A stretch of 64,000 nucleotides of DNA. Origin: Nitrosopumilaceae archaeon. GTDB lineage: Archaea; Thermoproteota; Nitrososphaeria; Nitrososphaerales; Nitrosopumilaceae. Position numbers and translations under genes: made by a program. The stretch's first letter is position 1, and each line of letters opens with the position of its first letter. The stretch lies in assembly GCA_965200155.1 (NCBI GenBank), contig CBDATR010000010.1, forward strand, positions 64,001-128,000, written 5' to 3'. Of the stretch, positions 18,815 through 35,528 are shown piece after piece. The notes below the pieces were generated by a model. The model was not told the origin of the DNA, made no database searches, and saw nothing but the letters and a program-made list of their open reading frames with translations.

Positions 18815-18906
18815 GTATGAGTTCACCTGTGTCTAAATTTACGCATAACTGATCGCGACAGTTAATGTGATTTGTGCATAAGATTCCGGAAGACGTGAAC
18901 TCATAC
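18815..18906 (-). mobile_element. MITE-A copy 3 (92 bp), no TSD
   Basis: Perfect TIRs; flanks GACAGATA / AATTTCTT differ, implying adjacent deletion or recombination. Confidence 0.9.
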
Positions 18907-18936
18907 AATTTCTTTTCCAATTCATTTACATAATTT

Positions 18937-19177
18937 CTAATAATTTGGTATGTGATTTCGTATTTCTTCTATGGTGCGTGACGTATATGCTTCCAATACT
19001 CTCACACGTTCCTTGTAATGTGCAAGATCTTTCTTGGTAGACGCAAGATCACGGTGTGATAAATCAATAATATAGCCACGCCCTCTTGTAATGTGCAAGA
19101 TCTTTCTTGGTAGACGCAAGGGTATCCTGAAGTTTATTTTCCAGTTCCAATTCCTTATAGGACCGGCGTCTTCTCAT
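18937..19177 (-). pseudogene. Coiled-coil ORF remnant next to a GTATGAGTTTACGTG end (probable N-terminus of the MITE-A partner transposase), disrupted by a 73-bp duplication-insertion
   Basis: Removing 19048-19120 restores MRRRRSYKELELENKLQDTLASTKKDLAHYKERVRVLEAYTSRTIEEIRNHIPNY; TIR at 19243-19266. Confidence 0.55.
19012..19120. repeat. Exact 36-bp direct repeat flanking a unique 37-bp insert (CRISPR-unit geometry)
   Basis: CTTGTAATGTGCAAGATCTTTCTTGGTAGACGCAAG at 19012-19047 and 19085-19120. Confidence 0.9.
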
Positions 19178-19572
19178 TAGATTCTTATTGCAAATTTTGT
19201 ATTTAAGTAAAATATTGCCATGCCAATCTATATCTTAGTGAATGATCAAAACACGTAAACTCATACGAATTGTGTGCTTCAAGTTTGGCGTGCAGGATGT
19301 CAATTTTTCCACGCAAGCTTGTTACTTCGGCATCAGACTCGGTGCGTAGCCGATTGTACTCTGTTATTAACTGCTCCTTGGTGAGTTCTTCTACTTTTAG
19401 CATACCAGATATTACAAGATTAGACCTTTTCTGTTTCACACACGTGTTTGTGTTAGGCCAATCATTTGCATCTATAAACTTGGTTTAAACGTGTAATGTT
19501 GGACAAGTGATTCTGCGCATAAGGTCTAATAACAGGGCGCATTACAGTGTCATATGACTCCGCATGATTTTC

Positions 19573-34801: not shown

Positions 34802-35042
34802 GTAACCGTTTAGGTCGAGTTAAAGATCAACACCTAGACGATAAATTCATGGCCATATGTAAGATAGAAAAAGCAAGATCGGACATGTTAGCGGTGTGTT
34901 TTGAACAGTTGTCCAGGGGTGACCTAAACGGTTGTATGAGTTCACCTGTGTCTAAATTTACGCACAACTGATCGCGACAGTTAAAGAACCGGTTCTTTTG
35001 TGCATAAGATTCCGGAAGACGTGAACTCATACAAACGGTTAC
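34802..35042 (-). mobile_element. MITE-B copy 1 carrying MITE-A in its TIR
   Basis: TIR GTAACCGTTTAGGTC / GACCTAAACGGTTAC; interior is the reverse complement of copies at 61442 and 62656. Confidence 0.88.
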
Positions 35043-35125
35043 CCTTGGCATGATCCACGTGTCCTCATATGGCTGCACCTGGGTGATGGTGTCCAGGGGT
35101 GACCTAAACGGTTACCCTTGGCATG
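34910..35125. repeat. 36-bp direct repeat flanking a unique 37-bp insert; first copy split by MITE-A
   Basis: TGTCCAGGGGTGACCTAAACGGTTACCCTTGGCATG at 35090-35125 and at 34910-34933 plus 35041-35052; insert 35053-35089. Confidence 0.88.
34934..35032 (-). mobile_element. MITE-A copy 7 (99-bp variant)
   Basis: Perfect TIRs; TSD AAACGGTT; internal palindrome AAAGAACCGGTTCTTT. Confidence 0.93.
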
Positions 35126-35145
35126 GCAAAAAAGTATATTGACCT

Positions 35146-35328
35146 ATGCACGACCCATTTTTGTTGGGTTGTTTTTGCGGTTGCGCCAAATATGAGAAGA
35201 ATGAAAACGGATTTCGATTGGCATGTGTAACATGTGGTCATGGACCGCAGAATCATGAGGAGGAGTTTCGTATGTCTGCTAGAAAAAACGAATCCGCGAG
35301 CCAAAAGCGCGACGCGGATTTTGGATGA
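35146..35328 (+). CDS. Possible small Cys/His-rich Zn-binding protein
   Basis: CFCGC....CVTCGH...H pattern in a 60-aa ORF. Confidence 0.4.
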   Translation: MHDPFLLGCFCGCAKYEKNENGFRLACVTCGHGPQNHEEEFRMSARKNESASQKRDADFG

Positions 35329-35528
35329 CAATGTGTTAACCCATATTCTTCAGAAACTTCAAGCATACGGCTTTTTAGAGATCAGAATGCGGGTTCTGTA
35401 TACATTACAGTGAGCTCCGTACTCAAGATCGTCATCATCACATCAGCGAGATATTAACATCATTGCTCACCAAGGTGATTTTATTGTTGTATTTGACCGT
35501 TACACACAGGGTTAGTTGGCGCGTGTTT

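What the first reader, a model, noticed from the sequence alone, without database searches (positions are those of the whole stretch)
19012..19120. Candidate off-target CRISPR spacer integration 1: 36-bp coding target duplicated around a foreign 37-bp insert
Seen: the exact 36-mer CTTGTAATGTGCAAGATCTTTCTTGGTAGACGCAAG occurs twice around the 37-mer ATCACGGTGTGATAAATCAATAATATAGCCACGCCCT. Deleting one repeat plus the insert restores a clean frame (..KLQDT-LASTKKDLAHYK-ERVRVLE..), so the repeat is pre-existing coding DNA. The 36-mer has dyad symmetry about its exact centre (CTTG/CAAG ends, CAAGA-TCTT-TCTTG core), and its minus strand ends ATTACAAG, resembling the ATTGAAA(C/G) end of many CRISPR repeats. 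Established: Cas1-Cas2 inserts a 30-40-bp spacer while duplicating a repeat-length target, and off-target integration at repeat-like sites has been shown experimentally in E. coli. DDE transposase TSDs are far shorter, and slippage does not add foreign DNA. Inference: a natural ectopic spacer acquisition that frameshifted a mobile-element gene. The identical 36+37 geometry at an unrelated site (34910-35125) makes chance unlikely.
Basis: partly seen in the sequence, partly recalled or inferred. Interest (0 to 1): 0.85.

Follow-up and report, generated by a model that had tools for sequence, protein, structure and literature searches.

The report
CRISPR spacers pasted outside the array
This archaeon's own CRISPR memory-writing enzyme has pasted spacer-sized DNA pieces into about sixty wrong places in its chromosome, this site among them, leaving a natural record of how often CRISPR adaptation misfires and captures the cell's own DNA.

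Summary
An identical 36-mer sits at window 19012-19047 and 19085-19120 around a 37-bp insert.

- **Native system:** the genome is an AmoA-encoding archaeon found in sponge metagenomes. It has one Cas1, a type I-G Cas4/Cas1 fusion with Cas2, beside an array of 289 repeats of 36 bp. Spacers are 34-40 bp, mode 37.
- **Length peak:** outside the array, duplications of 30-42 bp number 70 at periods 71-75 bp and at most 4 at any other period from 40 to 130.
- **Distinct events:** after clean-up there are 62 distinct inserts, plus site 2.
- **Site-1 target:** it lies in an IS66 transposase gene. Of 55 copies, 42 carry one 36-mer and 13 carry 2-4, with six unrelated insert families.
- **Insert origin:** 31 of 63 ectopic inserts copy DNA from elsewhere in the same genome, against 0 of 288 native spacers.
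- **PAM:** donors are enriched for the I-G PAM TTN (10 of 27).
- **Own operon hit:** the cas1-cas2 junction itself took two inserts.
- **Replication:** a second genome from another genus, with a related I-G system, shows about 24 such units.

The source of the site-1 insert was not found. Earlier scan notes report similar units on other DNA.

The parts
19012..19047 (.). First copy of the duplicated 36-bp target (IS66 coding sequence)
   Evidence: Exact match. The same 36-mer is single in 42 of 55 loci of the element.
19048..19084 (.). 37-bp spacer-sized insert, source not found
   Evidence: The length is the mode of the native spacers. No donor was found in the genome, viral contigs or metagenome contigs.
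19085..19120 (.). Second copy of the duplicated 36-bp target
   Evidence: Exact match with 0 mismatches to the first copy.
18911..19265 (-). Remnant of the 5' end of an IS66-family element. It holds the start of the transposase coiled-coil and carries the target. The limits are approximate.
   Evidence: A full-length copy (C24:459380-460834) matches Pfam DDE_Tnp_IS66 at 1.3e-34.
18817..18910 (.). MITE copy with hairpin ends (GTATGAGTTCAC...GTGAACTCATAC) abutting the IS66 remnant. It is context only, not part of the integration.
   Evidence: The same element splits repeat 1 of site 2.
34910..34933 (.). Site 2: left 24 nt of the first copy of a different 36-bp target
34934..35040 (.). Site 2: a later MITE insertion, with its short target duplication, that splits repeat 1
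35041..35052 (.). Site 2: right 12 nt of the first copy of the target
   Evidence: 24 + 12 nt equal the intact copy.
35053..35089 (.). Site 2: 37-bp insert, source not found
   Evidence: unique in the genome; no viral-contig match.
35090..35125 (.). Site 2: intact second copy of the 36-bp target. It spans a MITE end that contains CCTAAACGGTT, close to the native repeat's CCTAACGGTT.
   Evidence: Contigs of runs X1 and X5 cover 35014-35500 with 0 differences.

Best explanation
The unit is a scar of off-target ('ectopic') full-site spacer integration by the genome's own type I-G adaptation complex, the Cas4/Cas1 fusion plus Cas2.

Inferred mechanism, from the established chemistry of Cas1-Cas2:
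1. The complex, loaded with a ~37-bp prespacer, made its two strand-transfer attacks 36 bp apart on opposite strands of non-CRISPR DNA. Here that DNA was the coiled-coil coding part of an IS66 transposase.
2. Gap repair then duplicated the 36 bp between the attacks.
3. The result is target-insert-target with the dimensions of one native repeat-spacer-repeat unit.

Shown here:
- The geometry equals that of the native array.
- The target is pre-existing DNA, because empty copies exist.
- The process is genome-wide (62 distinct inserts plus site 2) and recurs at favoured targets.
- Inserts are copies, not excisions, of DNA from elsewhere (31 of 63 have an intact donor in the genome).
- Donors are enriched for the I-G PAM.
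- One insert overlaps a native spacer.

Inferred:
- Catalysis by Cas4/Cas1-Cas2.
- Target choice through weak resemblance to features of the native repeat.
- Persistence mainly where insertions are tolerated.
- The absence of self-derived spacers from the native array reflects selection against autoimmunity, while ectopic units, which lack the native repeat, are presumably not processed into crRNA and so are harmless.
For: 1. **Native system.** There is one Cas1 in the genome, at C9:69442-70278. It scores as Cas4g/Cas1g at 710.7 bits against a cut-off of 560, and Cas2, Cas3g, Csb1, Csb2 and the Cas3-extension protein are all present. The array at C9:71011-92087 has 289 repeats of 36 bp and 288 spacers, 286 of them 34-40 bp and three of 42, 44 and 57 bp, mode 37. 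The last repeat is degenerate.
2. **Length peak.** Outside the array, duplications of 30-42 bp number 5, 31, 19, 9 and 6 at periods 71-75, and 4 or fewer at each other period from 40 to 130. The exact-seed scan gives duplication lengths peaking at 36 (17 units) and 37 (19 units). The mean period is 72.8 against 73.0 for the native array.
3. **Empty sites.**
   - The site-1 target occurs at 55 loci. Of these, 42 are single (31 with both standard flanks) and 13 hold 2-4 copies in register.
   - Genome-wide, 20 of 62 events have an uninterrupted paralogue.
4. **Recurrence.** There are six unrelated insert families at the site-1 target. Other targets were also hit repeatedly.
5. **Insert origin.** 31 of 63 ectopic inserts have a donor elsewhere in the genome, against 0 of 288 native spacers (Fisher 4e-27). 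No two inserts share a 12-mer (0 of 1,891 pairs).
6. **PAM.** TTN flanks 10 of 27 unique donors against 12.8% expected (p = 0.0012). TTN is the published I-U/I-G PAM (PMC6547450, passages read).
7. **Link to the native array.** The insert at C25:4797 overlaps native spacer C9:75210 by 26-28 nt.
8. **Target resemblance.** Best identity to the native repeat averages 12.98 against 11.34 of 36 for random 36-mers (p = 8e-8). The excess lies at T3, C5, C11, C12 and C26. The half-site logo agrees.
9. **Own operon hit.** The cas1-cas2 junction carries three copies of a 37-mer around two inserts, both with donors elsewhere.
10. **Replication in G061.** This genome is from another genus, and its native repeat is 27 of 36 identical to this one. 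It has 25 candidate units, one of them low-complexity. 8 of 25 have self donors, against 2 of 134 native spacers.
Against: - No donor or PAM could be found for the site-1 insert itself or for the site-2 insert.
- The PAM is only partial: 17 of 27 donors lack TTN. One of the 27 rows is a copy of a unit rather than a donor.
- The orientation given by the PAM agrees with the orientation of best repeat similarity in only 4 of 7 informative cases, so directional integration is not shown.
- Targets resemble the native repeat only weakly. Site 1 matches 15 of 36 positions.
- Empty sites in related species could not be shown, because same-genus genomes are too diverged.
- The large subunit Csx17/Cas8g was not found, although the control genomes were silent for that model too. 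An IS lies beside csb1. It is therefore uncertain that interference works today, which weakens the autoimmunity argument.
- Catalysis by Cas4/Cas1-Cas2 is inferred, not demonstrated.
Confidence: 0.9

Rival explanations
1. An unknown process unrelated to CRISPR adds about 72 nt: a short copy of genomic DNA plus a compensating target duplication. An earlier follow-up of this scan argued this for another genome (e1-5079327).
For: Most donors lack the PAM (17 of 27). The orientation test is inconclusive (4 of 7). Targets look only weakly like the repeat. Duplication length and insert length are negatively correlated (r = -0.69). Similar units were noted by the scan in at least 6 genomes (these notes are unchecked).
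Against: The negative correlation is built into how I measured the lengths, because chance matches at the boundary move bases from insert to duplication. The period matches the native array in two genomes that each have their own I-G system. TTN is enriched at donors. One insert overlaps a native spacer. Inserts are not one hairpin family (0 of 1,891 pairs share a 12-mer; MFE -5.75 vs -4.85 kcal/mol, p = 0.026). No other integrase known to me gives 36-bp duplications.
Confidence: 0.05
2. The units are small functional CRISPR arrays or regulatory RNA genes kept by selection. Under this reading the IS66-borne arrays of up to four repeats would be expressed as guides.
For: Some units grew to 3-4 repeats. 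In-frame periods of 72 or 75 bp are over-represented (32 of 62 vs 98 of 284 native, p = 0.014), which shows that selection acts on them.
Against: Each locus has a different 'repeat' unrelated to the native one, so recognition by the I-G processing subunit is not expected (inference). No leader is evident. Half of the inserts match the host's own chromosome. The in-frame excess is what purifying selection on insertions in genes would give. Events are depleted from long open frames (28 of 62 vs 72% of random positions, p = 6e-6).
Confidence: 0.03
3. The unit is an assembly or sequencing artefact, or comes from replication slippage or tandem duplication.
For: Site 1 lies in high-copy repeats, and contigs of public runs did not bridge it. 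The genome is a draft of 51 contigs.
Against: Slippage cannot add unrelated DNA between the copies. There are 62 distinct events with one geometry, and inserts copied from distant loci. The same pattern occurs in a complete single-contig genome. The right half of site 2 is bridged without differences by contigs from runs of two studies, though one of them may be the source sample.
Confidence: 0.02

Closest known systems
Non-canonical (off-target) Cas1-Cas2 spacer integration, 'neo-CRISPR' loci (Nivala, Shipman and Church, Nat Microbiol 2018). The paper itself is not held. I know it from citing passages and from recall.
   Same: A spacer-sized insert is flanked by a duplication of repeat length at non-CRISPR DNA. 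Targets share some features with the repeat. Repeated hits can seed small arrays.
   Different: That work used type I-E Cas1-Cas2 over-expressed in E. coli. A citing preprint says it found only 'circumstantial evidence' in two other species. Here the events are natural, made by a type I-G Cas4/Cas1 fusion in an archaeon. They number about 63 in one genome and about 24 in a second. Half are self-derived, and one pair sits inside the cas1-cas2 operon.
Canonical type I-G (formerly I-U) adaptation by Cas4/1-Cas2 (Almendros 2019, PMC6547450; Dhingra and Sashital 2023, PMC10504553; passages read)
   Same: The same enzyme family is encoded here. The 36-bp repeat ends in ATTGAAGG. TTN is enriched next to donors.
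   Different: Canonical integration is at the leader-repeat junction, directional, and 50-80% PAM-compatible. The ectopic events have no leader, show about 37% TTN, and have no demonstrable polarity.
In vitro off-target integration by Pyrococcus furiosus Cas1-Cas2 (PMC6698737; passages read)
   Same: Off-target sites share specific sequence features with the CRISPR repeat, spread along its length.
   Different: That study was in vitro on plasmids and used a different subtype. Here the events are fixed in chromosomes.
Casposon and DDE-transposon target-site duplications
   Same: Integration with staggered attacks followed by gap repair.
   Different: By recall, casposon duplications are about 14-15 bp and DDE duplications 2-15 bp, and the inserted element has defined ends. 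Here the duplication is 36-37 bp and every insert is different. The only Cas1 found is CRISPR-associated.

Membership tests
Off-target Cas1-Cas2 spacer integration (neo-CRISPR unit) | The duplicated target has the length of the genome's native CRISPR repeat | tested here: met
   36 bp at site 1. The native repeat is 36 bp, in 289 copies.
Off-target Cas1-Cas2 spacer integration (neo-CRISPR unit) | The insert has the length of native spacers | tested here: met
   37 bp. Native spacers are 34-40 bp with mode 37 (101 of 288).
Off-target Cas1-Cas2 spacer integration (neo-CRISPR unit) | The duplicated sequence is pre-existing local DNA, so empty sites exist | tested here: met
   42 of 55 loci of the element have one copy, and 31 of those have both standard flanks.
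Off-target Cas1-Cas2 spacer integration (neo-CRISPR unit) | An adaptation module (Cas1 and Cas2) is encoded in the genome | tested here: met
   The Cas4g/Cas1g fusion and Cas2 both score over their curated cut-offs.
Off-target Cas1-Cas2 spacer integration (neo-CRISPR unit) | The geometry recurs genome-wide with a length peak matching the native array | tested here: met
   70 units at periods 71-75, against 4 or fewer at each other period from 40 to 130.
Off-target Cas1-Cas2 spacer integration (neo-CRISPR unit) | The insert is copied from a protospacer that carries the system's PAM | tested here: inconclusive
   For site 1, no donor was found. Genome-wide, 31 of 63 inserts have donors, and TTN flanks 10 of 27 unique donors against 12.8% expected.
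Off-target Cas1-Cas2 spacer integration (neo-CRISPR unit) | Integration is catalysed by the Cas1-Cas2 complex | not testable with these tools
   This needs biochemistry or genetics.
Genuine CRISPR array of the resident system | The repeats are the cas-associated consensus repeat | tested here: not met
   Best identity of the site-1 36-mer to the native repeat is 15 of 36. Native-repeat copies occur only in the C9 array, plus one orphan on C43.
Transposable element with target-site duplication | The insert is a recurring element with defined ends | tested here: not met
   0 of 1,891 insert pairs share a 12-mer.

The most novel reading that the evidence does not exclude
Off-target integration is a frequent, lineage-wide and probably ongoing activity of type I-G Cas4/Cas1-Cas2 in ammonia-oxidising archaea related to this sponge-associated one. 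Because ectopic units escape autoimmune selection, they keep an unselected record of what the integrase captures, about half of it self DNA. They also act as a mutagen: they add 24-25-codon in-frame insertions, break genes (including the system's own operon), and seed growing neo-CRISPR arrays at favoured targets such as the IS66 transposase.
Probability: 0.55. Interest if true: 0.8.

Novelty: new member of a known kind. Interest (0 to 1): 0.72.

Why it matters
Off-target spacer integration is known mainly from E. coli that over-express Cas1-Cas2. How often it happens in nature, what it costs, and whether it can seed new CRISPR arrays are open questions.

This genome offers about 63 natural events from a defined type I-G system, with several useful features:
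- **Empty-site controls:** many uninterrupted copies of the targets exist in the same genome.
- **Favoured targets:** some were hit up to six times independently.
- **Small arrays caught growing:** some loci now hold 3-4 repeats.
- **Self versus non-self:** 31 of 63 ectopic inserts are self-derived, against 0 of 288 native spacers. This makes the strength of selection against self-targeting directly measurable.

The events also explain a class of odd 72-75-bp insertions inside genes. A second genome shows the same pattern, so the effect is not a one-off. My six literature searches found no description of such a natural genome-wide pattern. The library lacks most subscription journals, and supplements were closed.

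Tried and rejected
- **Empty sites in relatives.** A DNA search with one ectopic locus in 30 relatives gave only weak matches of 65-76% identity. Protein searches with two in-frame-interrupted ORFs found homologues of 36-48% identity that do not cover the sites. This was uninformative, so I used in-genome paralogues instead.
- **The IS-borne 36-mer in relatives.** It was not found in the 60 family genomes searched, with up to 3 mismatches.
- **Named relatives of Cas4/Cas1.** Seven loci came back at 38-51% identity, in assorted bacteria and one archaeon. This gave no help with the lineage.
- **Source of the inserts.** There were no exact matches in viral contigs for either window insert, nor in metagenome contigs for a 29-nt core of the site-1 insert. 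Exact matching would miss a diverged source.
- **Read support.** Only assembled contigs were available, from sponge-metagenome runs of 3 studies. Around site 1 they break up in repeats and no listed piece bridges it. I draw no conclusion from that.
- **Polarity.** The PAM-defined orientation and the repeat-similarity orientation agree in 4 of 7 cases, which is inconclusive. In the IS66 mini-arrays the widely shared, presumably older, insert always lies on the same side of the newer ones. This rests on only two lineages.
- **Hairpin-element idea.** Rejected for this genome.
- **A recollection that proved wrong.** I recalled that a 2014 Methanomassiliicoccales genome paper described dispersed repeat-spacer-repeat units. 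The passages I read mention only a few 'CRISPR-like elements' in up to three copies.
- **Csx17/Cas8g.** It was not found, but the model matched none of the control genomes either, so this does not show absence.
- **Rows dropped before counts.**
  - I removed 3 of 70 units as tandem or protein repeats (C10:347801, C40:6595, C29:837).
  - I merged 5 units that carry the same insert, which left 62.
  - In G061 I removed 3 of 28 candidates that lie in repeat-dense regions, and I ignored period-75 protein repeats.
  - De-duplication of targets (58 kept) was imperfect: the cas-junction target and IS66 variants each appear more than once.

Full report
**Observation.** No shuffle of the window gave any match. 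The second site is also real. An intact 36-mer lies at 35090-35125 and a 37-bp insert at 35053-35089. The first copy is split 24 + 12 nt by a later MITE insertion.

**The genome and its CRISPR system.** The window is C10:64001-128000 of a 2.38-Mb draft in 51 contigs, 87.6% complete. The genome encodes archaeal AmoA and is held by sponge-metagenome runs of three studies.
- It has a single Cas1, a Cas4g/Cas1g fusion of 549 aa at C9:68770-70419. Cas2 follows it.
- A leader of about 165 bp follows, then an array at C9:71011-92087 of 289 repeats of 36 bp (ATTTCC...ATTGAAGG) with 288 spacers, all but three of them 34-40 bp (mode 37).
- The last repeat is degenerate, as expected at the end far from the leader.
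- Beyond the array lie csb1, csb2, cas3g and the Cas3-extension gene.
- This is a type I-G system. Csx17/Cas8g was not found, though the model's controls were silent, and an IS abuts csb1.

**Genome-wide scan.** I scanned every contig for pairs of similar segments at fixed distances.
- Outside the native array, pairs of 30-42 bp number 5, 31, 19, 9 and 6 at periods 71 to 75, and at most 4 at any other period from 40 to 130.
- With exact seeds, the duplication length peaks at 36 (17 units) and 37 (19 units).
- I removed three tandem-repeat artefacts and merged copies that carry the same insert. This leaves 62 distinct inserts. Site 2 makes 63.
- Each unit duplicates a different local sequence.
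- The mean period (72.8) does not differ from the native array (73.0; p = 0.13).

**The duplicated DNA is pre-existing.**
- The site-1 target lies in the N-terminal coiled-coil of an IS66-family transposase (Pfam DDE_Tnp_IS66, 1.3e-34).
- The genome has 55 loci with this 36-mer (up to 4 mismatches). Of these, 42 carry one copy, 31 of them with both standard flanks, and 13 carry two to four copies in register.
- The inserts at this one target fall into six unrelated families. One family spread with the element and later gained further inserts, giving arrays of up to four repeats.
- In a full-length copy, a 72-bp insertion leaves the transposase frame open. The window copy is only a short remnant of the IS.
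- Genome-wide, 20 of 62 events have an uninterrupted paralogue. Comparison with other species failed because they are too diverged.

**Where the inserts come from.**
- 31 of 63 ectopic inserts have a near-perfect match elsewhere in the same genome, and the donor there is intact. So the process copies DNA rather than moving it.
- None of the 288 native spacers has such a match (Fisher 4e-27).
- Inserts form no sequence family (0 of 1,891 pairs share a 12-mer). They fold only marginally better than random 36-mers.
- Among 27 unique donors pooled from this genome and G061, 10 are flanked by TTN, against 12.8% expected (p = 0.0012). One of the 27 rows is a unit copy rather than a donor.
- TTN is the PAM shown for a type I-U/I-G Cas4/1 system (PMC6547450).
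- The insert at C25:4797 overlaps native spacer C9:75210 by 26-28 nt. Both stores therefore sampled the same DNA.
- Neither window insert has a donor that I could find.

**Target choice.**
- Targets resemble the native repeat slightly but significantly. Best identity averages 12.98 against 11.34 of 36 (p = 8e-8). The excess lies at repeat positions T3, C5, C11, C12 and C26.
- A symmetrised half-site logo shows T at +3, G/T at +4, C/A at +5 and G-S-C at +10 to +12. This fits both ends of the native repeat.
- PAM-defined and similarity-defined orientations agree in only 4 of 7 cases. I therefore do not claim directional integration.

**Signs of selection.**
- Events lie in long open frames less often than random positions do (28 of 62 against 72%, p = 6e-6).
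- Periods divisible by three are over-represented relative to the native array (32 of 62 against 98 of 284, p = 0.014).
- Most units have identical repeat copies, so they are young. In site 2, however, a MITE inserted later into the first repeat copy.
- The cas1-cas2 junction itself carries three copies of a 37-mer around two self-derived inserts. The cas2 start codon is preserved in the last copy.

**Replication in a second genome.** As a control I fetched a complete 1.86-Mb genome of another genus in the same family (G061, 63% GC). It encodes a Cas4/Cas1 fusion.
- Its array has 135 repeats of 36 bp, 27 of 36 identical to the repeat here.
- It was meant as a negative control, but it shows the same thing. 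There are 25 candidate units at periods 70-74, one of them low-complexity.
- 8 of the 25 have self donors, against 2 of 134 native spacers (p = 5e-6).

**Comparison with what is known.**
- Off-target integration by over-expressed type I-E Cas1-Cas2 in E. coli, producing 'neo-CRISPR' loci, is the closest precedent. I could not read that paper. A citing preprint says it found circumstantial evidence in two other species.
- In vitro work with P. furiosus proteins found off-target sites that share repeat features.
- Six searches of the held library found no report of natural genome-wide events of this kind.
- Earlier notes of this scan describe the same pattern elsewhere in this genome, and similar units in at least six genomes. 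One follow-up on another genome preferred a non-CRISPR process with hairpin inserts. That does not fit here.

**Verdict.** The finding is a real instance of natural ectopic spacer integration by a type I-G system. It is one of about 63 such events in this genome. The kind of event is known from the laboratory. What appears undescribed is the natural scale, the self-derived inserts, the recurrent targets and the hit on the system's own operon.

Noticed in passing
G000 contig C9:70400-70590 (outside the window; L002:18400-18590): The cas4/cas1-cas2 junction carries three copies of a 37-mer around two inserts of 34-37 bp, so the integrase hit its own operon twice. Both inserts have donors elsewhere in the genome. 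The cas1 stop codon lies in the first copy and the cas2 start codon in the last.
   Followed up: partly
G000, donors of ectopic inserts: 16 of 31 self-donors lie on contig C10, which is 22.7% of the assembly (binomial p = 4e-4). They are spread over 28-478 kb. This could mark a replication- or repair-related capture bias.
   Followed up: no
G000 C25:4797-4831 and C9:75210-75246: An ectopic insert and a native-array spacer overlap by 26-28 nt in opposite orientation. These look like two captures from the same unknown DNA.
   Followed up: partly
G061:C1:1692138 and 1693522: The only two native spacers of G061 with perfect matches to its own chromosome lie at the end of the array next to cas1, presumably the leader end. 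They may be recent self-targeting acquisitions.
   Followed up: no
window 18817-18910 and 34934-35040: Two copies of a ~95-100-bp MITE with hairpin ends (GTATGAGTTCAC...GTGAACTCATAC). One inserted into repeat 1 of site 2. The genome is very repeat-rich: 137 of 600 random 156-nt segments have a paralogue.
   Followed up: partly
G000 C9:~98,000-100,800 (L003:7200-9300): An IS with a DDE_Tnp_4 transposase sits directly upstream of csb1, where a large-subunit gene would be expected. Csx17/Cas8g was not found in the genome with TIGR04113, but the control genomes were silent too.
   Followed up: partly
G000 C43:128227: This is a single orphan copy of the native repeat (3 mismatches, minus strand), far from the array.
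   Followed up: no
G000 small contigs C2-C4, C6, C8, C14-C18 and others: Many short contigs have 35-41% GC against ~47% for the large ones, and are full of 41-50-bp tandem repeats. They may belong to another replicon or organism.
   Followed up: no
Scan notes and run list: This archaeon occurs in sponge metagenomes. Earlier scan notes describe similar units in a sponge-associated Poribacteria genome, whose habitat that note states, and in several other bacterial genomes whose habitats the notes do not state. A link with the symbiont lifestyle is possible, for example through weak selection or heavy virus exposure, but it is untested.
   Followed up: no
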